DNA of 64,000 nucleotides. Source: Candidatus Hydrogenedens sp. (GTDB taxonomy: Bacteria; Hydrogenedentota; Hydrogenedentia; Hydrogenedentales; Hydrogenedentaceae). The notes beneath the pieces were generated by a model. The model was not told where the DNA came from. It saw nothing but the letters and a program-made list of their open reading frames with translations, and did not search any database. Shown here piece after piece: positions 13,147-43,230 of the stretch. The translations under genes were made by a program, and so were the position numbers. How positions within the stretch are numbered: position 1 is the stretch's first letter; the number at the start of each line of letters is the position of its first letter. The stretch is taken from contig JBMFRC010000001.1 in NCBI GenBank assembly GCA_049968235.1, positions 32,001 through 96,000 of the forward strand, read 5' to 3'.

Positions 13147-13763
13147 GTTAAATCTAAAATACCTACGAATATTGTTATCACATTCCTTAATGCATAAACA
13201 AAAATAAATACAGGAAACAGTATAAGATATGCTAAATACAGGAGCAAATTATCTTTGCCCCGAATATAGCACAAGCATTTATTCCTTCTTTTGCAATTAT
13301 AAGTGGTGCGATTATTTTAATTTATCAGAGTAATACAATTATCCTGCTTTTGATAAATTCAATTTATTAATTAGCACCGGCATTTCTCTCTTTGCTTTTT
13401 ACCACGAATGGTGCGAGATGTAAATAAGCATAAAGTATTTATTATAGCAAATGATTATTCGCCATTACATAGAGATGCACTTGCCATGCAGGCGGGTTTT
13501 TGGAATGTGTTGGTAAAAATCGTTTCTGTCTGGCAGGACTTTCAGCAAGACAATGAGATAATTTTCACCACGGAGGACACGGAGGGACACATAGATATTT
13601 TTTTCTTATCACAGAAAGCACGGAGAACACAGAGAAGGGAACAGAGAATAGGTATGAGTATGGATATATTTATTCTATGATTTATATTCTCCTTTCCTTT
13701 TTTCTCTGTGTTTCTCTGTATTCTCTGGGGTGGAGTATTTTTTTTCTCACCACAGAGAGCACT

Positions 13764-14021
13764 ATCTTTTCTTGTTAATGACTGCATATAATTTGAAGTG
13801 GATATATGAGGAATTAAGGGGGCAAAAGGAGAAGTATGCATAGGTAACCAAAAGATAAAAATACTCACAGAAAATAACAAATAAAATGGGTAAAAGTAGG
13901 GATACAGACTTTTGTATTTTAATTTTTCATCGGGATTTTATCTCATAAAAACATGTATAATTTATACTCTTACCTCTTACCTCTTACCTCTTACCTCTTA
14001 CAAAAATTGTTCAGAGGTCTC
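13764..14021. repeat. ~250-bp repeated intergenic element, copy A; sits in the leader position 3' of cas2
   Basis: Aligns at ~85% identity with 40693-40926 (…tcttgttaatga(c/t)tgcatataatttgaag…ggaattaaggg…gcaaaaggaga…atgcatag…acaga…ttgtattttaattt…attttatctcataaa…aattgttcagaggtctc). Ends 10 nt before the cas2 stop codon. Confidence 0.8.
13967..14001. repeat. Microsatellite (CTCTTAC)x5 inside element copy A
   Basis: Five perfect tandem heptamers. Copy B has unrelated sequence at the corresponding position. Confidence 0.9.
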
Positions 14022-14031
14022 GTGTATTTTT

Positions 14032-14358
14032 TTATACTATAATAAGGTTGGGGTTTGAGATGGGTGTATAGTAGTTTAGTCCGTTTCTGTTGATAATTTT
14101 GATTTTATTTGCATCAGCATGGCAAAGGGGTATGATATGTATAATAAGTTGTCGGTTTTGGTCATTGGGTTGTTCGTTGGAGAGGTAATCACGAATGGTT
14201 TCCTGTAGTTTTTCGATAAGGAGTTCTTTTTCATATTCATCGAGGTCGCCCATGAAAACGGAGAATTGTATGTGCGAAGTTCCTACTTCTTCGAGGAGGT
14301 AGGTTATTTTGTTTCGTAGTTTATCGTTTCCTATGTCGAATAATAGTAGTGTTTGCAT
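14032..14358 (-). CDS. cas2: CRISPR-associated endoribonuclease Cas2
   Basis: MQTLLLFDIGNDKLRNKITYLLEEVGTSHIQFSVFMGDL… fits the canonical Cas2 N-terminal beta1-Asp/alpha1/beta2 pattern. 108 aa. Confidence 0.75.
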   Translation of the reverse strand: MQTLLLFDIGNDKLRNKITYLLEEVGTSHIQFSVFMGDLDEYEKELLIEKLQETIRDYLSNEQPNDQNRQLIIHIIPLCHADANKIKIINRNGLNYYTPISNPNLIIV

Positions 14359-14371
14359 AGGTTGATTTGTG

Positions 14372-15340
14372 TTATAGGTTGTATTTATTTTGTTGATTTA
14401 GGGTTTGTGTTAGTTTTATGGCTGCGAGCAGGATGTGTTTTTGGTAGTTGGTATTGGGGTCTTTGGGGGTAGGTTCATAGAGGCGTTCTATGTAAAGGGA
14501 GGAGAGTTTTTTTGTGTTTCTTTTTCGAGTAATCCGTTTTTCTGGAGTTGTACATTTATTCCTTGTCGTATGTAAGCGAGTAAGGGTGTATCGATGAGGG
14601 GTTGACGGAAAGGTTCGATAAAGAAGACGAGGGACTGTTTGTTGTTCTGTAGGGTGTGCAGAAACCCTGCATATGGGTCGAGTCCGGCGAGGGTTAAGGC
14701 ACGGAAGCATTCGGAGTAGAGGATGCCGTAACCGTAGTTGAGTGCAGAATTGACGGGGTCTTTCGAATGTCGGTGTGTTCTGTGGGTAAAGTTATAATTG
14801 GCTGGGATAAGTTGTTTGAAATATGACCAGTAGATGGATGAGGCGTGTGCTTCGGTGGACATGATTTGTTGTTTTGCGTGGGATATATTTTCAGTGTTGA
14901 TGGATTTTAATTTTTCGATGAGTGGGTAAATAGTATTGTGAAGTGTATCTTCGATTTGGGCTAAGTATGTTTTGTATCGACACAGGAATTAGAATTGGTT
15001 TTCGATTTTTGTTTGTATGTATTTTTTTGGCAATTTGTATGCCTAAGCCGTTCTGGATGGCTGTGTATTGGTTCCATCGGTTCTGGATATGGGGGTGATT
15101 GTATATAGGCTGGATAAAAGTGATGGAGTTCCCGTAGGGCTTACATACGGTTAAGGCGATGTCTTGCTGGCTTGCGAGTGAAAGTGCTTCAGCGGAGATG
15201 GAAAATCCTTGGGTGAAGATGATGATGTGTGAGAGTTTGCTGGATGGGATTGTTTTAAGGGTTTTGTTTTCGCCGATAATTTTGAACATGTTTTTGTGTC
15301 TACCGACACGGATATTCTTTTCAATAAGGATGAGATGCAT
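14372..15340 (-). pseudogene. cas1: cas1 pseudogene (two or more frameshifts)
   Basis: N-terminal fragment 14891-15340 (MHLILIEKNIRVGRHKNMFKIIGE…GFSISAEALSLASQQDIALTV… fits the Cas1 N-domain). Middle fragment 14488-14862 in another frame (…DPVNSALNYGYGILYSECFRALTLAGLDPYAGFLH…SLVFFIEPFRQPLID… fits the Cas1 catalytic core). C-terminal remainder in a third frame. Total span about 323 codons. Confidence 0.7.
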
Positions 15341-15461
15341 GTTAAAGTCCTCCTCTTCATTATTTTTATTACATCTAACCTTAAAAAGTTGTATTATTTG
15401 CTATGTATTTAGTCCCAATCAATTTCGAGTTTGAACCAACCCATAGGAAGGGATGCCTTTG

Positions 15462-16643
15462 TTATTTTTTTTGTGATGTAGTTAATTTATGAGACTTTGG
15501 ATAAGGTATTTGGTCAGAACATCTGTCTCTCTTTGCTTTTCCCCATTTTTTGTCATTTGTATCTCCTTGTGAAAATAGTAATGTTATAGTTTTTGATAAA
15601 GAACCTGTGCCATAACCTAATTGTAAAAATATTTTTTTGCCTCTTTCTATCCTAATATCTTCAGGGATGTCATATTCATTTTTATTTACAGAATTAAAGA
15701 ATTCCAGTTGTTTATCAATTAAAATTTCTGAGTATTTGCGTAAACAATCTTGAAAACTCTGTGTATCGTTAAGAACATTTTTAAGATATTTTATCTATTC
15801 TCCGTTATTATATTTATATTCATCCAACATAAATTTTAATGCTTGTTGGTCTAAATAGAAATCTATAATTATTTCTTTACCTTTAGGAATCAGGCATTCA
15901 GCAAATATATCAAATGGTTTAGTTGAAAATTTGTCTCCATTTTTACTTTTTACTTTTATTTGACATATTCCAAAATTGTCGATAGGAATCTCTTTAGAGT
16001 CTCTGATTACTAAAAATTTAAATAAATCATATTTTGCATCATAATTCGAATTATCTACTTCTAATGTAGTATATTTTTCTATATTTTTATTAAGGAGAAT
16101 ATTATTAATATTATTTGACTCTTTAATTAAACAATTAGTGACTGCATTTCTTATACATCCCTTTATACTTGAACCTGGAATAAAAAATTTCCCAAATGGG
16201 TATTTTATAAAGGAAAGGATTGGAGGAAGAGAAGTAGATTCTTGACATATAGATTTTGACTGAGAATTTTGGGATTGTTTTTTCTCAACTTGTTTCTGTA
16301 TTTTTCTTAGTTCTGGAGGAAGTGCTGTATGTTTAGGCGATATGGACCTTGATTGTTTATTTGTTTTTTCTCCTCTTGTTCCAAAATCAGCATATATAGG
16401 AAGAGAATAGCGAATATATTCAGGGTCGGGACGAAAGGAGGGTTCTTCAATAATCTTTAAATCAGTTTCATAATCTTCGCAATTATCCTGAAAATATTTC
16501 ATGACATCTTTTAGACAGAATAATAGCTGTTTCTCGTCAATGTCAATGTAATATTCAAAATTCTGATATTCTTCGCCATCTGATATATGGATGGGAGTGA
16601 TAGGTGTTAGTTTGAATTTGCCATGTTTCTTTTTATCGTTCAT
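15462..16643 (-). pseudogene. csm5: Type III RAMP, Csm5-like (Cas7 group), interrupted by an in-frame TAG
   Basis: The N-terminus MNDKKKHGKFKLTPITPIHISDGEEYQNFEYY is Csm5-like. RAMP glycine loop IPGSSIKGCIRNAV. ORF stops at TAG 15795-15797. The same frame continues for 110 more codons (IKYLKNVLNDTQSF…ERGKKIFLQLGYGTGSLSKTITLL…) and contains a G-rich motif. AAGGAG lies 8 nt upstream of the ATG. Confidence 0.65.
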
Positions 16644-16656
16644 TGTTTTTCTCCTT

Positions 16657-17595
16657 TTAAGGATGTTTGAAATAGATATTGAATGCGAGACCGGAACGCC
16701 AGATAGGATGAGGTGATGAGTCGTAACTGATGGCGATTACATCCCCCTTAGGCATTTCTTTGATAACAGGGAATTTACTTCCTTCTATACACATACGAAC
16801 AGATTGTTTGGGTTCATCATACCCGGCAATGCCATGTATCCACCCACCTCGCATAGTGCATTCATAAGATGCGATATTGGTGAGAATACCATTTTCAAAT
16901 TCTTCCAAAGTAGGATGATAAAGACTGAGTATTGCGGGACTGAGTATTGCGGTAGCTTTTGGTGGACTTTCCTGCCCACTTATTTTGAGCGTATCATTTT
17001 CTTCAATAATATATTTTGATTCGAAAGGTTCAATTTTTTTATAGTAAAATGTCCGAAACCTAAACTGCGTTCACCACCAATACCCAGTTTACCCAAAGCG
17101 GATAGAAAATTGACAAATGATTCTTTTTTCTCTTCTTCTAATTTAACAAAAAACCACAATCCGACATCTTCTTCGCTATTTATCTCATAAAAATTTTGAG
17201 GGTAGGCTGTAGTTTGATTAGTAACCCGGTCAATGACGGTGGAAATTTTATAATTTTCTTTAACGGTTTTTTTGGAGGGGAAACCTTCTTTATTATTTAT
17301 CAGGTCATTCATTTCTTCATTCAGGAGAAAAGTTGTTCCTGGATTCTCTTCATCACCGTCTAAATAGGGATAATCTTCTTTTTTTTGGGAAAAGTTCTTT
17401 TAATATTTGCTGGGTTTCTTCTGCTTTTTGGAATATTGATGAAGTGGTTAGAAGAATGACATTATCAAAATCACCAATGTTAACAGAAGAAATAATCGGC
17501 CCCTATTGTGTTCCACCGGTGGGTGCTTCATCTACTCTCCCGTAAGGGTCATTTGTTCCTACAAAACTTAACAGTAGAGAAGATTTCCTCCCCAT
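16657..17595 (-). pseudogene. csm4: Csm4-like (Cas5 group) RAMP pseudogene, three frameshifts
   Basis: Segments: MGRKSSLLLSFVGTNDPYGRV…, then …GPIISSVNIGDFDNVILLTTSS…KELFPKK. Next the track's 110-aa ORF (…EDVGLWFFVKLEEEKKESFVNFLSALGKLGIGGERSLGFGHFTI), whose G-rich loop and context closely parallel Csm4. Then …KKIEPFES…MEEFENGILTNIAS… up to the stop at 16657. Two of the frame changes coincide with A8 and A7 homopolymers. A 15-bp tandem duplication lies at ~16926-16955. Confidence 0.5.
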
Positions 17596-17688: not shown

Positions 17689-18069
17689 TTATTTTTCGGG
17701 GAAAGAGGAGGGGTGGGAACCGATGGCGATAATACTGCAAGCGTAGATGGGATTTAAGTTGAGTTGGATTGCCTTTTGCATAAGTTCTTCGTCTTCCGCA
17801 CCGGGGTTGATGTAAAGTTCCTCATGCTTCTTTTTAGCGATTGAGGGTAAAAGTGTTTTGCCGATTTGGGGAGGGACATAGACACTGATACGGTCGATAG
17901 GCTCGGGGACCTCCTCAATAGATTTATAGCAGGGAATTCCTTCAATTTCTGTAAGGTTTGGATTGACGGGATAAACTGTCCATCCTCTGGCAATATATGC
18001 ACGAATAGCTTTGTTGCTATATTTGTTTTTGTCTGCAGATGCACCGATGATTGCAACCGTTTTAGACAT
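17689..18069 (-). CDS. CoA-binding domain protein (YccU/YneT-like), 126 aa
   Basis: MSKTVAIIGASADKNKYSNKAIRAYIARGWTVYPVNPN…IEGIPCYKS… The ATG at 18069 lies 4 nt after the clpP stop. The 253-aa track ORF is a spurious upstream extension overlapping clpP. Confidence 0.75.
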   Translation of the reverse strand: MSKTVAIIGASADKNKYSNKAIRAYIARGWTVYPVNPNLTEIEGIPCYKSIEEVPEPIDRISVYVPPQIGKTLLPSIAKKKHEELYINPGAEDEELMQKAIQLNLNPIYACSIIAIGSHPSSFPEK

Positions 18070-18073
18070 TGTA

Positions 18074-18736
18074 TTATTTCTCTTTTTTGGGTTTTGAGCG
18101 TTGGAGAACTTCGTCGATGAGTCCGTAATTTTTCGCTTCTTCTGCACTGAGGAATAGGTCGCGGTCGGTATCTTTACGGATAACTTCGATGGGTTGACCG
18201 GTATGTCTGGCGAGAATCTGGTCAATGGTTTCGCCGATACGAACAATTTCCTGAGCTTGAATAGCAATATCTGTTGCCTGTCCACGGACACCTCCCATGA
18301 GTTGATGTAGTAAGAAGCGTGAATAAGGGAGGGCGTAACGTTTGCCTGGAGTTCCTGCGGACATAAGCACAGCAGCCATACTTGCTGCCTGTCCAAGACA
18401 GATAGTCGTAATTTCAGGGCGTATAAATTGCATCGTGTCGTAAATAGCAAGACCTGCCGTTACACTTCCTCCCGGACTATTGATGTAAAGGTTGATATCT
18501 TTATCCGGATCTTCTGCCTCTAAATATAATAGTTGAGCAATGATATAGTTTGCGACATAATCGTCAATGGGCATACCCAGAAAGATAATTCGGTCCTCAA
18601 GCAGGCGTGAATAAATATCGTAAGCCCTCTCACCCCGACTCGTTTGCTGGTATATTGTTACCGCCTGTGGATTAATGGGGCTTTCGGAATAAGGATGAAT
18701 TCCGTGTTTAAGTAATTTTTCTATTGCTTCATGCAT
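18074..18736 (-). CDS. clpP: ATP-dependent Clp protease proteolytic subunit ClpP
   Basis: …[23 protein letters not shown]…[20 protein letters not shown]…[11 protein letters not shown]…LHQ. Shows the catalytic Ser/His context and the conserved tig-clpP synteny. Confidence 0.9.
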
Positions 18737-20320: not shown

Positions 20321-20402
20321 TGGGCGAGGCGGGAGTTGAACCCGCACACCTTGCGGTACTGGATCCTAAGTCCAGCGCGTCTGCCAATTCCGCCACTCGC
20401 CC
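20321..20402 (-). tRNA. tRNA-Leu (anticodon TAG), long variable arm, CCA not encoded
   Basis: Reverse complement reads GGGCGAGTGGCGGAATTGGCAGACGCGCTGGACTTAGGATCCAG…GGGTTCAACTCCCGCCTCGCCCA. Anticodon loop CTTAGGA. Class II variable arm. T-arm GGTTCAACTCC. Confidence 0.8.
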
Positions 20403-40223: not shown

Positions 40224-40692
40224 AGAATTTTTTTATATATGAGGCCTCTGAATAAAACATATACGATAAATAGTATATGAAAGTTTATATACAGGAAGGA
40301 TAAGGGAAAAAATGAAACGAAAGATGTATATATTTCACAAAAGGAATAGGTTAATTACACAGTAAAGAAAAAGTTAAATGGAGAAAGGTAAATGTGCGGT
40401 ACAATGAAAGAGGTAAAGCAGATGAGGTTTTTAGATTATGCAGTATCAAAACAGAAACCGACATGATGAGAGAAATAATTGAAAGTGATGCCAGAGATAA
40501 CCCTGTGGGAGAAATTGAAATGTAGATGAGTAGAGGGGAGTGTATAAATAAAACTGGGGATAGCGAAGGAGGTTTGTCCTTACTATTTTATGCATTGTTA
40601 ACCAGTGAGTGATGATTTCTTTTTGTTCTCTGTGGTTGATTATGTTTTTTACATTACGGAGAACACGGAGAGGCTCAGAAAGAGGAGTATAT

Positions 40693-40926
40693 CATTTCTT
40701 GTTAATGATTGCATATAATTTGAAGCGGATGTATGGGGAATTAAGGGAGCAAAAGGAGAGTTATGCATAGATAATAAAAAAATAAAAGAACTGACAGAAA
40801 ATAATAACCGAAATGGGTAAAGGTAGAAATACAGACTCTTGTATTTTAATTTCGTATGGGAATTTTATCTCATAAATAATTTATAATTTATACCCTAACC
40901 TTTTGCACGAATTGTTCAGAGGTCTC
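40693..40926. repeat. ~250-bp repeated intergenic element, copy B
   Basis: ~85% identical to 13764-14021 and ends with the same aattgttcagaggtctc. Lies between the convergent xylB and the 764-aa gene. Lacks the (CTCTTAC)5 tract. Confidence 0.8.
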
Positions 40927-40935
40927 AAATATTGT

Positions 40936-43230
40936 TCAGGTACTTGCATACTGGCGCAATTCTTGTAAAATTGTGGAAAGGCGTTCTGATGTTTTTTCGA
41001 TATAAGGGAGAAATCTTTTTCCTTTTCCTTCACGAACCCCCATACGATATTCCGTAAATTCACCTGCTAATTTTAAGACCTCTTCTTTATATTTATCCAC
41101 AATAGTATTTTTTCCCTCACTTAATAAACGACACAAGACACCATCACAGGCACATAAAATAGCCCCAACCTCAAAAAGTTTCCCCCGTACTTTATATATA
41201 TCTTCTATTGTATAAAGGGTATTCGTTACTTGATTTTTTATTTCTACCATTTTTTGTAAGGTATTCATGGATTGTTTTTCTTTTAATTCTCTTATCCTAT
41301 CTATTATTTTTTCTACCGATGGTAAATAGGGTTTAAGTAGTTCAACATTAATTGAAATTTGTTGCTCAATATAATCAAAAATTCGATACATAATTATCTC
41401 TCCCCAACGCTGGCATTCTTCGGGAGTAGCAATAAGAATAATTTGTCCCTGTCCGGGAAACATTTCGCGATGGAAAGAGGGAGGTAGTTCTTCCCACTGG
41501 TAAGAACGGACAAATTGAGTAGCGTCGTATGCACGATATTGTTCCGGTAAAGCGGAACGGAAATTAATATTAACCCCTGTTACTTCTGATGTGTCTTGAT
41601 TTACAAGATAAAACAACCAGAAATTTTCTCCTTTCATCCATGTATGAATTAAAATATCAACATTATCGGGACATCTTGAACGAGGATGTTTCCGTGATTG
41701 GATATCCGGTGAAAAATCAGGAGGATTTGTAGGTTTTGCTGTCATCACTAACGAGGCAAGAGAGTAGAAGCATCCTAACCTCCCTCCTAATTCCTGCCAG
41801 ACATCACTGAAAGTCAGGAAAGGTCCTGTTAAAGAACGCTGACATTCACCTCCTGACCATAGCGGTATATTATGGTATGTATAACTTAGCCATCCGCGGA
41901 CACCGCTGGATATTGCCAAATTGACCATAAGTCGTATTTCTGGCGCAGAATTCCAAATAGGGGCGCCGGAACCAAAAACAAATGCGGGACCAATTGCCCA
42001 TAAATGTTGCCCATTAACAAATTTTATATGGGTTTTAAGGACATGTCCTAATTCCCATGGAGTTTTTGATTTCCAATGACTTATCCCGGAAATTGAAGAA
42101 AAGGGAGCGTATACGGGGAAGGCATTGGCTTCTCGTGTAAGGTAAATGACAGGATGTTTTTCATCTATCTGTTCAATTTTCTTTTTGATTTGTATATAAG
42201 CATCTACTTCCGAATCGGAGGGATTTTCTTTGATTACCCATCCGAACAAATTATCTTCGGTAGAATATCTTTTAATAGAATGCTCTTTTTCTTTGATAAA
42301 TGATGCTGTCTTTGTAGGTTCCAGGAGTACGGTTTCTTCTTCTAAAGAAATGATTAATTTAATATTGTGTTTTTTAGAGGTTTCAAAGAGTACTTCCTGG
42401 TCTCCTGGCAGGAATTCATAAAATCTTTCTACAAAGGCAACATTATGATAATGTAGAGACATATCTTCAAATAATAAATCCAGATAAGAAGATAGGTCTA
42501 TTTTCATAAGATGGGACATATTTCGGGCTGTATTAGCATTGATATAGGTTCCTATCGGAAAGAAATTATCCAGGACAGGATAATGAATCGGTTTTTCATT
42601 GGCGGATGGTAAAATATCTTTTTTGTTGAGCAGGTTTCTTTCTCTTTCCGTAGGTTCTCGAAAGCGTATACTGCGAATATACATTGTCTCTTTTGTTCTT
42701 GTAAATGAATATAAGCGGAGAGCAAAGTTTTCCATCTTTCTCGGGAAACTATTGAAACACCATGCCCTTGCTACTGTAATCCATTTAAAATCCATATCGA
42801 GGAATTCAAAAAATTGACCTGTTGTATAGTGCCATGTCCATGCGGGAAGACATTTACCATATTGCATACGATAGGATATTTCAACAATGGGGTGTTTGTT
42901 CTGTGCTATAGGGAAATGGGGAACAGAACTTGTTCGAGTGCTTAATGGAACCCAGTAACTGGGTCTTTCCATGTCTTTTAAAAAATTTAATCTGCGTAAT
43001 CCAGTAAAATCACCCGTCCATCGTAGAACTTTTTCTCCATCTATTTCATCTATCATCTTTCGGGCAGGGATATCTTTCCACTCCTGTTCTCCCGGGTCAT
43101 CTTCCTGGGACCATTTCATCAAATCTTCTGCATAAAATGTAATATTTGAACATCTCTCCCGTTCTTCTAAAGTTGGCGGTTCTTTGATTTTGTTTAGAAG
43201 TCCTTTGTAAATATAATATTCGTTTTCCAT
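40936..43230 (-). CDS. Hypothetical 764-aa protein, possibly a carbohydrate-active enzyme (next to a sugar ABC transporter)
   Basis: No signal peptide and no family recognisable by eye. Genomic context (permease plus sugar-binding protein) only. Confidence 0.35.
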   Translation of the reverse strand: MENEYYIYKGLLNKIKEPPTLEERERCSNITFYAEDLMKWSQEDDPGEQEWKDIPARKMIDEIDGEKVLRWTGDFTGLRRLNFLKDMERPSYWVPLSTRTSSVPHFPIAQNKHPIVEISYRMQYGKCLPAWTWHYTTGQFFEFLDMDFKWITVARAWCFNSFPRKMENFALRLYSFTRTKETMYIRSIRFREPTERERNLLNKKDILPSANEKPIHYPVLDNFFPIGTYINANTARNMSHLMKIDLSSYLDLLFEDMSLHYHNVAFVERFYEFLPGDQEVLFETSKKHNIKLIISLEEETVLLEPTKTASFIKEKEHSIKRYSTEDNLFGWVIKENPSDSEVDAYIQIKKKIEQIDEKHPVIYLTREANAFPVYAPFSSISGISHWKSKTPWELGHVLKTHIKFVNGQHLWAIGPAFVFGSGAPIWNSAPEIRLMVNLAISSGVRGWLSYTYHNIPLWSGGECQRSLTGPFLTFSDVWQELGGRLGCFYSLASLVMTAKPTNPPDFSPDIQSRKHPRSRCPDNVDILIHTWMKGENFWLFYLVNQDTSEVTGVNINFRSALPEQYRAYDATQFVRSYQWEELPPSFHREMFPGQGQIILIATPEECQRWGEIIMYRIFDYIEQQISINVELLKPYLPSVEKIIDRIRELKEKQSMNTLQKMVEIKNQVTNTLYTIEDIYKVRGKLFEVGAILCACDGVLCRLLSEGKNTIVDKYKEEVLKLAGEFTEYRMGVREGKGKRFLPYIEKTSERLSTILQELRQYAST

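What the first reader, a model, noticed from the sequence alone, without database searches (positions are those of the whole stretch)
16657..17595. Csm4-like gene split over four frames, with shifts at A8 and A7 homopolymers
The track shows only fragments (110-aa and 83-aa ORFs). Stitching frames through the poly-A runs near 17350-17357 and 17034-17040 (plus-strand T7) yields a ~320-aa protein. Its G-rich loop region (…FLSALGKLGIGGERSLGFGHFTIKKIEPFE…) parallels Csm4. Homopolymer-associated shifts may be sequencing artefacts, phase variation or genuine decay. A third shift near 17505 is not at a homopolymer, which favours decay.
Basis: partly seen in the sequence, partly recalled or inferred. 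Interest (0 to 1): 0.5.

Follow-up and report, generated by a model that had tools for sequence, protein, structure and literature searches.

The report
Deletion scar in dead CRISPR locus
This is not one broken Csm4 gene but the scar of a 6-kb deletion that joined the first 73 codons of a regulator gene to the last two-thirds of csm4, inside a type III-A CRISPR-Cas locus that is decaying as a whole: ordinary gene loss.

Summary
The fragments are real, and the 3' 725 nt (16657-17381, minus strand) are csm4: NCBIfam TIGR01903 gives 97 bits against a cut-off of 55. They cover only profile positions 111-302 of 304.

The first 73 codons (17595-17377) are not Csm4. They are the 5' end of an RtcR-like CARF/sigma-54 activator gene (75% identity, E 1e-36).

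Related Candidatus Hydrogenedens genomes carry the intact order dxs-tig-clpP-CoA_binding-rtcR-cas10-csm2-csm3-csm4-csm5-cas1-cas2. The window lacks about 6.0 kb, from rtcR codon ~75 to csm4 codon ~147. The junction lies in the A8 run at 17379-17386, where the relatives share an AAAAGAAG microhomology.

The "third shift" is an in-frame TAG (17503-17505, Tyr to stop). Near the A7 run, one base is missing.

Downstream genes are damaged too. csm5 has one stop and one frameshift. cas1 has two frameshifts and one stop. Only cas2 keeps its ORF. No CRISPR array is present.

Two other near-identical MAG assemblies share the junction, the TAG and the A7 frameshift. Forty-four other A/T runs of 7 or more lie in long uninterrupted ORFs. 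The cas remnants also evolve faster than their relatives (151 vs 58 unique changes). I conclude genuine decay, not artefact or phase variation.

One side observation: in the relatives, the regulator plus a sigma-54 promoter precedes cas10.

The parts
17377..17595 (-). 5' stub (codons 1-73 of ~503) of an RtcR-like CARF / sigma-54 enhancer-binding-protein gene
   Evidence: BLASTP to P0010 gives 54/72 identical, E 1e-36. tblastn of L004 rtcR matches aa 3-75 only. P0010 carries Pfam RtcR + Sigma54_activat + HTH_8.
17503..17505 (-). In-frame TAG nonsense codon in the rtcR stub (Tyr to stop)
   Evidence: The window has CAA TAG GGG where L004 has CCT TAT GGA. All four relatives encode Tyr here.
17379..17386 (-). 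A8 run: junction of the ~6.0-kb deletion that joins rtcR codon ~75 to csm4 codon ~147
   Evidence: blastn: window 18227-17381 aligns to L004 1-856, and window 17382-14026 aligns to L004 6892-10275. In relatives the rtcR side reads CCAAAAAAAGAAGTA (L006) and the csm4 side GGAAAAGAAGAT (L004), sharing AAAAGAAG.
16657..17381 (-). 3' fragment of csm4 (codons ~147-384), in two frames
   Evidence: TIGR01903 97.4 bits, profile positions 111-302 of 304. tblastn of L004 Csm4 matches aa 147-275 and 251-381 in two frames. 71% identity to P0001, E 1e-104.
17021..17040 (-). Stretch holding the -1 frameshift in csm4; the A7 run 17034-17040 is the likeliest site
   Evidence: There are 20 nt between the GHF and PFES codons, against 21 nt (7 codons) in P0001, P0003 and P0005.
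16923..16952 (-). Perfect 15-bp tandem duplication inside csm4 (in frame), polymorphic between strains
   Evidence: TRF and the repeat finder both report it. It is absent from intact relatives and from the sister assembly L012, but present in L011.
15415..16643 (-). csm5 pseudogene: in-frame TAG at 15795-15797 and a +2 frameshift at about 15475 beside the A8 run 15465-15472
   Evidence: tblastn of L004 Csm5 matches aa 1-406 in one frame and aa 404-423 in another. The repaired translation hits TIGR01899 at 86.6 bits over positions 78-364 of 364.
14378..15340 (-). cas1 pseudogene: +1 at about 15028-15030 (A7 run 15022-15028), TAA at 14989-14991 (from CAA), -3 at about 14624, -1 at about 14509 (A7 run 14507-14513)
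   Evidence: tblastn splits it into three frame segments. Indels are and the stop. The repaired translation hits TIGR00287 at 189 bits.
14032..14358 (-). cas2, 108-aa ORF still uninterrupted but fast-evolving
   Evidence: Pfam CRISPR_Cas2 5.5e-10. 76% identity to L004 Cas2. 18 vs 5 unique changes in the relative-rate test, p 0.007.
17692..18069 (-). Intact CoA-binding gene, the syntenic left anchor of the locus
   Evidence: 126 aa, 86% identical to the L004 orthologue. CoA_binding_2 8e-26. It occupies the same position in L001-L004, L006 and L007.

Best explanation
The region is a non-functional deletion scar inside a decaying type III-A CRISPR-Cas locus of a Candidatus Hydrogenedens lineage.

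The ancestor carried rtcR-like - cas10 - csm2 - csm3 - csm4 - csm5 - cas1 - cas2, placed between the CoA-binding gene and a SIS-domain gene.

Shown:
- One deletion of about 6.0 kb removed the 3' 85% of the regulator gene, its downstream sigma-54 promoter, cas10, csm2, csm3 and the first ~146 codons of csm4.
- It joined the two remaining ends inside an A-rich stretch.
- The remaining genes carry inactivating lesions. The rtcR stub has a TAG. csm4 has a -1 frameshift and a 15-bp duplication. csm5 has a TAG and a frameshift. cas1 has two frameshifts and a TAA.
- Amino-acid change is accelerated across all the remnants.

Inferred:
- The deletion arose by slippage or illegitimate recombination between short direct repeats (AAAAGAAG or similar).
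- With the effector gone, the other genes lost selective constraint.
- The small indels near poly-A runs are ordinary replication slippage in unconstrained DNA.

Nothing here is expected to make a working protein. The locus records the loss of type III-A immunity in this lineage.
For: Identity of the two halves:
- Csm4 profile match is limited to positions 105/111-302 of 304.
- The N-terminal 72 aa are 75% identical to the RtcR-like P0010, E 1e-36, and show nothing to Csm4.

Intact syntenic loci:
- The same flanks (dxs, tig, clpP, CoA_binding) and the full gene order occur in L001-L004, L006 and L007.
- The same cassette sits in a different flank in L008 and L009.

Deletion:
- The blastn breakpoints are L004 856 and 6892.
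- No cas10, csm2 or csm3 hit occurs anywhere in the 64-kb window.
- Microhomology is present at both parental sites.

Other lesions.

Not an artefact:
- L011 (GCA_049971155.1) and L012 (GCA_049969095.1) are 99.6-99.96% identical. They share the junction, the TAG, the A7 frameshift and the csm5 TAG.
- 44 of 62 A/T runs of 7 or more lie in long uninterrupted ORFs. 5 of the 7 runs in the remnant coincide with a lesion (Fisher p 9e-6).
- Three of the lesions are base substitutions to stop codons.

Relaxed constraint:
- Tajima relative-rate test gives 151 vs 58 unique amino-acid changes in the cas remnants (p 1e-10).
- Housekeeping genes give 41 vs 58.
Against: - No reads are available, so the exact length of each homopolymer cannot be checked. 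One run (cas1, 15022-15028) is A7 here and A6 in L012, so homopolymer lengths do vary between assemblies.
- The three assemblies carry adjacent accession series and may come from one study. If so, their independence is limited to separate assembly.
- The relative-rate test assumes that the window's cas module is sister to L004's. For cas1 the window is equidistant from all relatives. That would also fit an older divergence.
- The exact breakpoint and the microhomology are inferred from relatives that are only ~75% identical.
- Only 64 kb of a 421-kb contig was examined. A second CRISPR-Cas system elsewhere, or an array elsewhere, cannot be excluded.
Confidence: 0.93

Rival explanations
1. Sequencing or assembly artefact: the gene is intact in the organism, and the frame changes are homopolymer miscalls or a mis-join.
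For: - All four small frameshifts in the locus lie at or next to A runs of 7-8.
- One such run differs by one A between two assemblies.
- The source is a metagenome-assembled genome.
Against: - Three separately assembled MAGs share the junction, the TAG and the A7 frameshift exactly.
- 44 comparable runs elsewhere in the window leave long ORFs of up to 1633 aa uninterrupted.
- Three lesions are substitutions to stop codons.
- 6 kb, including cas10, csm2 and csm3, is absent from the whole window.
- A mis-join across an 8-nt microhomology is not something k-mer assemblers produce. This last point is my inference.
- The remnants show accelerated protein evolution.
Confidence: 0.02
2. Phase variation: slippage in the A8 and A7 runs switches expression of a Csm4-like protein on and off.
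For: - Removing one A and adding one A restores a continuous 312-codon reading.
- A simple recombination between the AAAAGAAG repeats would have been in frame.
Against: - The restored reading still contains a TAG at codon 31.
- It is a chimera of a partial CARF domain and a Csm4 that lacks profile positions 1-104.
- Its partners cas10, csm2 and csm3 are gone.
- csm5 and cas1 are also broken.
- The A8 and A7 runs do not vary among the three strains.
Confidence: 0.02
3. The fragments have been co-opted. The annotated 110-aa and ~125-aa ORFs, or the intact cas2, still make small proteins with a new role, for example a Csm4 C-terminal domain acting with a type III system encoded elsewhere.
For: - NCBI annotation calls the fragments as proteins in all three MAGs.
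- cas2 keeps a full 108-aa ORF.
Against: - The fragments are delimited by the lesions themselves.
- The 15-bp duplication inside the C-terminal fragment is polymorphic.
- Substitution rates are raised in every remnant, cas2 included.
- At the observed lesion density, roughly 8 in 3.5 kb, a 327-nt ORF escapes damage about half the time. This last figure is my own arithmetic.
Confidence: 0.03

Closest known systems
Csm4 (Cas5-family RAMP of type III-A effector complexes; NCBIfam TIGR01903, Pfam Csm4_C PF17953)
   Same: Residues encoded by 16657-17381 match the family above its curated cut-off. The match includes the glycine-rich loop GIGGERSLGFGHF and the C-terminal domain. Best relatives are 368-389-aa Csm4 proteins of Candidatus Hydrogenedens.
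   Different: It lacks the N-terminal ~146 codons (profile positions 1-104). It is frameshifted and carries a 5-codon duplication. It no longer sits behind cas10-csm2-csm3.
RtcR-like CARF / sigma-54 enhancer-binding proteins (Pfam PF06956 + PF00158 + PF02954)
   Same: Codons 1-73 at 17595-17377 are 75% identical to the start of such a protein, P0010. The gene occupies the same position after the CoA-binding gene as in relatives.
   Different: Only the first ~15% of the gene is left, with a stop at codon 31. The AAA+ and HTH domains are deleted. Even the intact relative scores below the equivalog cut-off of RtcR proper (312 vs 650 bits) and is not next to rtcAB, so it is RtcR-like rather than RtcR.
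Degraded or orphan CRISPR-Cas loci (cas pseudogenes left after loss of the effector module)
   Same: There is a large internal deletion, scattered nonsense and frameshift lesions, no detectable array, and an accelerated substitution rate.
   Different: Nothing unusual. The only special point is that the breakpoint can be mapped to a few bases, because intact syntenic relatives exist.

Membership tests
Csm4 (TIGR01903) | Profile score above the curated cut-off | tested here: met
   96.7-97.4 bits against a cut-off of 55.
Csm4 (TIGR01903) | Full-length match including the N-terminal RAMP/RRM domain | tested here: not met
   Only profile positions 105/111-302 of 304 are matched. Intact P0001 matches positions 3-302. 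The upstream 72 aa belong to another family.
Csm4 (TIGR01903) | Uninterrupted reading frame | tested here: not met
   The fragment occupies two frames, with a -1 shift between GHF and PFES.
Type III-A CRISPR-Cas system | cas10/csm1, csm2 and csm3 present alongside csm4 and csm5 | tested here: not met
   tblastn of L004 Cas10, Csm2 and Csm3 finds no hit in the 64-kb window at E <= 0.01. All three are present in relatives.
Type III-A CRISPR-Cas system | Adjacent CRISPR array | tested here: not met
   No repeat-spacer array was found anywhere in the window. Only 64 kb of the genome was seen.
RtcR-like CARF sigma-54 activator | N-terminal CARF-type domain | tested here: inconclusive
   The first 72 residues are clearly homologous (E 1e-36). 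They cover less than half of the domain. Pfam RtcR matches residues 35-166 in P0010, and no Pfam family hits the stub alone.
RtcR-like CARF sigma-54 activator | Sigma-54 interaction AAA+ domain and C-terminal HTH | tested here: not met
   The tblastn match stops at aa 74-75. The rest of the gene is absent from the window.

The most novel reading that the evidence does not exclude
The stub is the last trace of a regulatory design that I could not find described. In six distinct related loci, with regulators down to 41% identity and several different genomic flanks, an RtcR-like CARF enhancer-binding protein sits directly upstream of cas10-csm2-csm3-csm4-csm5. A -24/-12 sigma-54-type element (TGGCAY-N5-TTGC or a close variant) lies 19-38 nt before the cas10 ATG in the four loci where my scan measured it; L006 and L015 carry variants with a weaker -12 element.

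The Cas10 proteins keep the GGDD cyclase motif. No csm6, csx1 or other CARF effector is visible in the cassette.

The most novel reading is that this type III-A operon is transcribed from a sigma-54 promoter under a CARF sensor. That sensor might respond to Cas10-made cyclic oligoadenylate or to cleaved RNA ends, which would give transcriptional feedback. The window shows the destroyed version of this module, not a working one.
Probability: 0.35. Interest if true: 0.6.

Novelty: new member of a known kind. Interest (0 to 1): 0.2.

Why it matters
For the window itself it matters little. It shows that this Hydrogenedens lineage has lost its type III-A CRISPR-Cas effector. It also shows that the annotated 'RAMP superfamily' and 'Csm5' proteins of these MAGs are pseudogene fragments.

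It is a clean, base-level example of a microhomology-associated deletion followed by neutral decay. It is also a caution against stitching frames without checking each segment's family.

The comparison loci may be more useful than the scar. They suggest a sigma-54 / CARF-activator control of type III-A operons that deserves a systematic survey.

Tried and rejected
1. I suspected that the strong plus-strand G>C, T>A skew at 14-16 kb reflected C-to-T decay of the pseudogenes. Rejected: the intact cas1/cas2 of L004, L006 and L008 show the same coding-strand C>G skew of -0.19 to -0.43 (-0.36 to -0.43 in cas1, -0.19 to -0.34 in cas2).
2. Exact search for the junction 42-mer in genome contigs and metagenome contigs found 0 hits. 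Those collections do not hold these MAGs. The sister assemblies were found through exact protein look-up instead.
3. The search for related loci with the Csm4 fragment in genome contigs gave only L010, which is the same contig as L006.
4. A homologue search with the regulator's CARF domain alone returned nothing, not even the parent protein. I treat this as a limit of the candidate retrieval step. The full-length query worked.
5. The search for related loci with the CARF domain in metagenome contigs gave only two near-identical loci.
6. A CRISPR array or leader downstream of cas2 was not found. The tails after cas2 in L004, L006 and L008 resemble neither each other nor the window.
7. Rfam at gathering thresholds found only one tRNA.
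8. The promoter/terminator scan of 16.5-18.2 kb was at background level.
9. The CARF classification paper of 2020 could not be retrieved.
10. Structure prediction was not used, because sequence evidence was decisive.

Full report
**What is in the sequence**

On the minus strand of 16657-17595 there are only short ORFs. Translating the three minus-strand frames shows four coding segments that use two frames.
- Segment 1 runs from the ATG at 17595 to a TAG at 17503-17505.
- Segment 2 continues in the same frame up to an A8 run at 17379-17386.
- Segment 3 is in the +1 frame and runs to an A7 run at 17034-17040.
- Segment 4 returns to the first frame and ends at the stop at 16657.

The 939 nt are divisible by three. 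Deleting one A at the A8 run and adding one at the A7 run gives a 312-codon reading with one internal TAG. The A8 coordinates are about 30 nt off. The 'third shift near 17505' is a nonsense codon rather than a frameshift.

**What the stitched reading matches**

NCBIfam TIGR01903 (Csm4) scores 96.7 bits (E 1.6e-27, cut-off 55) and Pfam Csm4_C scores 1.5e-10. The match covers only residues 91-307, which is profile positions 105-302 of 304. An intact relative, P0001, matches positions 3-302, so the missing N-terminal match is not a weakness of the profile.

A homology search with the stitched reading returned two kinds of hit.
- Csm4 proteins of 368-389 aa from Candidatus Hydrogenedens that cover only the last ~77% of the query (best hit P0001, E 1e-104, 71% identity).
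- One 503-aa protein, P0010, that covers the first 23% at 74% identity.

P0010 carries Pfam RtcR (the divergent CARF domain), Sigma54_activat, AAA_lid_14 and HTH_8. The first 72 residues of the reading are 75% identical to P0010 residues 3-74 (E 1e-36) and show no similarity to Csm4. The 'gene' is therefore a chimera of two unrelated genes.

**Comparison with intact loci**

Contigs encoding the Csm4 relatives carry dxs - trigger factor - clpP - CoA-binding - rtcR-like (501-507 aa) - cas10 (916-945 aa) - csm2 - csm3 - csm4 - csm5, followed by cas1 and cas2 wherever the contig reaches that far (L004, L006, L008).
- L001-L004, L006 and L007 have the same left flank as the window.
- L008 and L009 have the same cassette in a different flank.

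blastn of the window against L004 gives two collinear blocks. Window 18227-17381 aligns to L004 1-856, and window 17382-14026 aligns to L004 6892-10275. About 6.0 kb is therefore missing, from rtcR codon ~75 to csm4 codon ~147.

tblastn with the L004 proteins finds the following in the window:
- rtcR aa 3-75 only.
- Csm4 aa 147-381 only.
- No cas10, csm2 or csm3 anywhere in the 64 kb.

**The junction**

The junction lies inside the A8 run. The parental sites in relatives read CCA AAA AAA GAA GTA (rtcR of L006) and GGA AAA GAA GAT (csm4 of L004/L002). They share AAAAGAAG in the same codon phase. A simple recombination there would give CCA AAA AAA GAA GAT, which has A7 and is in frame. The window has A8. 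Either the join was made one base out of register within the A run, or a +1 slip followed. The data cannot separate these two options. That the deletion used this microhomology is an inference from relatives that are only ~75% identical.

**The rest of the locus is also broken**

- csm4 fragment: 20 nt lie between the conserved GHF and PFES codons, where relatives have 21. The A7 run is the likeliest but unproven site of the lost base.
- csm4 fragment: a perfect 15-bp tandem duplication (16923-16952) is absent from relatives.
- csm5 (16643-15415): an in-frame TAG at 15795-15797 and a +2 frameshift beside an A8 run at 15465-15472. After the shift, the conserved C-terminus LPMGWFKLEIDW continues in another frame.
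- cas1 (15340-14378): split over three frame segments, with +1 at about 15028-15030, -1 at about 14509, a 3-nt deletion at about 14624, and a CAA-to-TAA stop at 14989-14991.
- cas2 (14358-14032): keeps its 108-aa ORF.
- No CRISPR array is present in the window.

**Artefact or real?**

The window comes from a Candidatus Hydrogenedens sp. MAG on a 421-kb contig. The 110-aa csm4 fragment and the 282-aa csm5 fragment occur with identical sequence in three NCBI assemblies. The two that could be fetched are L011 (GCA_049971155.1) and L012 (GCA_049969095.1). They are 99.96% and 99.6% identical to the window over 4.8 kb and share the junction, the TAG, the A7 frameshift and the csm5 TAG.

The differences between the assemblies are what one expects in unconstrained DNA:
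- The 15-bp duplication is absent in L012.
- The cas1 A7 run is A6 in L012.
- A (GTAAGAG)n microsatellite differs by one unit.
- There are five point differences.

Elsewhere in the window, 44 of the 62 A/T runs of 7 or more lie inside long uninterrupted ORFs of up to 1633 aa. Of the 7 runs in the remnant, 5 coincide with a lesion (Fisher p 9e-6). The 'intact' set is defined by being uninterrupted, so this figure is only indicative.

A Tajima relative-rate test also points to relaxed constraint.

| Gene set | Changes unique to the window | Changes unique to the nearest relative | p |
|---|---|---|---|
| cas remnants, all | 151 | 58 | 1e-10 |
| rtcR stub | 12 | 2 | 0.008 |
| csm5 | 55 | 24 | 5e-4 |
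| cas1 | 44 | 13 | 4e-5 |
| cas2 | 18 | 5 | 0.007 |
| clpP, tig and CoA-binding | 41 | 58 | not accelerated |

The caveat is that the test assumes the window's cassette is sister to L004's. That holds for rtcR, csm4 and csm5 by identity. It is not resolved for cas1.

**Conclusion on the finding**

The region is a deletion scar and pseudogene remnant, not a phase-variable or artefactually split csm4. Scientifically this is ordinary gene loss in a known system.

**Side observation: the regulator in related loci**

The deleted regulator is interesting in its own right. The CARF survey of 2014 states that the RtcR-like family, unlike most CARF families, is not typically found near cas genes, and that RtcR-like NtrC-type proteins are often next to restriction-modification systems (PMC4012209). 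I found no paper in the held library that links sigma-54 with Cas10.

Here the regulator sits directly upstream of cas10 in L002, L004, L006 and L008. The same is true for more distant homologues in differently flanked contigs: L015 (47% identity) and L016 (41% identity). A 39% homologue in L017 instead precedes a type I R-M operon.

Each intergenic region contains a -24/-12 sigma-54-type element, lying 19-41 nt before the downstream ATG where the scan measured it.

| Locus | Element |
|---|---|
| L004 / L002 | TGGCATATTTCTTGC |
| L006 | TGGCATCTTTCTTGT |
| L008 | TGGCACTCTTTTTGC |
| L015 | TGGCACACTTTTTGA |
| L016 | TGGCATGAAGTTTGC |
| L017 | TGGCACATTGCTTGC |

All six Cas10 proteins keep GGDD. 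No csm6 or csx1 gene is seen in the cassettes. A sigma-54-dependent type III-A operon sensed through a CARF domain is therefore a reasonable hypothesis. It was not tested here, and in the window that module has been destroyed.

Noticed in passing
L004 2143-2314; L002 5642-5813; L006 5741-5900; L008 5682-5838; L015 9530-9763; L016 5658-5833: In intact relatives an RtcR-like CARF/sigma-54 activator gene directly precedes cas10. The intergenic region holds a conserved -24/-12 sigma-54-type element (TGGCAY-N5-TTGC or a near variant), 19-38 nt before the cas10 ATG in the four loci where the scan measured it. Cas10 keeps GGDD, and no other CARF protein is in the cassette. I found no description of this arrangement in the searchable literature.
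   Followed up: partly
window 14032-15340; also L004 8956-10267, L006 12550-14157, L008 12530-13932: cas1 and cas2 of this clade have an extreme coding-strand excess of C over G: GC skew -0.36 to -0.49 in cas1 and -0.19 to -0.39 in cas2, with G only ~11-16%. This holds in the window and in intact relatives. The csm genes next to them do not show it. The skew is not a product of decay, and its cause is unexplained.
   Followed up: partly
window 13763-14031 and 40690-40936: A ~250-270-nt dispersed repeat (79-85% identical, same orientation) abuts the stop codon of cas2. A second copy abuts the stop of a 764-aa ORF (40936-43230) that has no Pfam hit. It is not found in the relatives' loci and has no Rfam match. 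It could be a small mobile or terminator-associated element, or a trace of the event that removed the CRISPR array.
   Followed up: partly
window 13967-14001: A perfect (CTCTTAC)5 microsatellite lies just downstream of cas2, inside the dispersed repeat. The sister assembly L012 has six units, and the other repeat copy at 40.9 kb has none.
   Followed up: yes
window 15022-15028: The A7 run at the first cas1 frameshift is A6 in the sister assembly L012. That frameshift is therefore either polymorphic in the population or an assembly difference. It is the only homopolymer in the locus that varies between the three assemblies.
   Followed up: partly
L004 10268-10378; L006 14158-14395; L008 13933-14140: The contigs of three relatives all end 110-240 nt after cas2, as expected if a CRISPR array breaks the assembly there. 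The window runs on for 880 nt of non-coding DNA to a SIS-domain gene, with no array.
   Followed up: no
L017 8001-17572: A 39%-identical homologue of the regulator precedes a type I restriction-modification operon with an MNT/HEPN pair and a reverse transcriptase. It has a perfect TGGCAC-N5-TTGC element 41 nt before the first downstream ORF.
   Followed up: no
window 20321-20402 (minus strand): A tRNA gene (Rfam RF00005, 60 bits) lies between dxs and the trigger-factor gene.
   Followed up: no
window 17689-18450: The mechanical 253-aa ORF is an over-extension. The real gene is the 126-aa CoA-binding protein at 17692-18069, and the upstream part overlaps the 3' end of clpP (18074-18736) in another frame.
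   Followed up: yes
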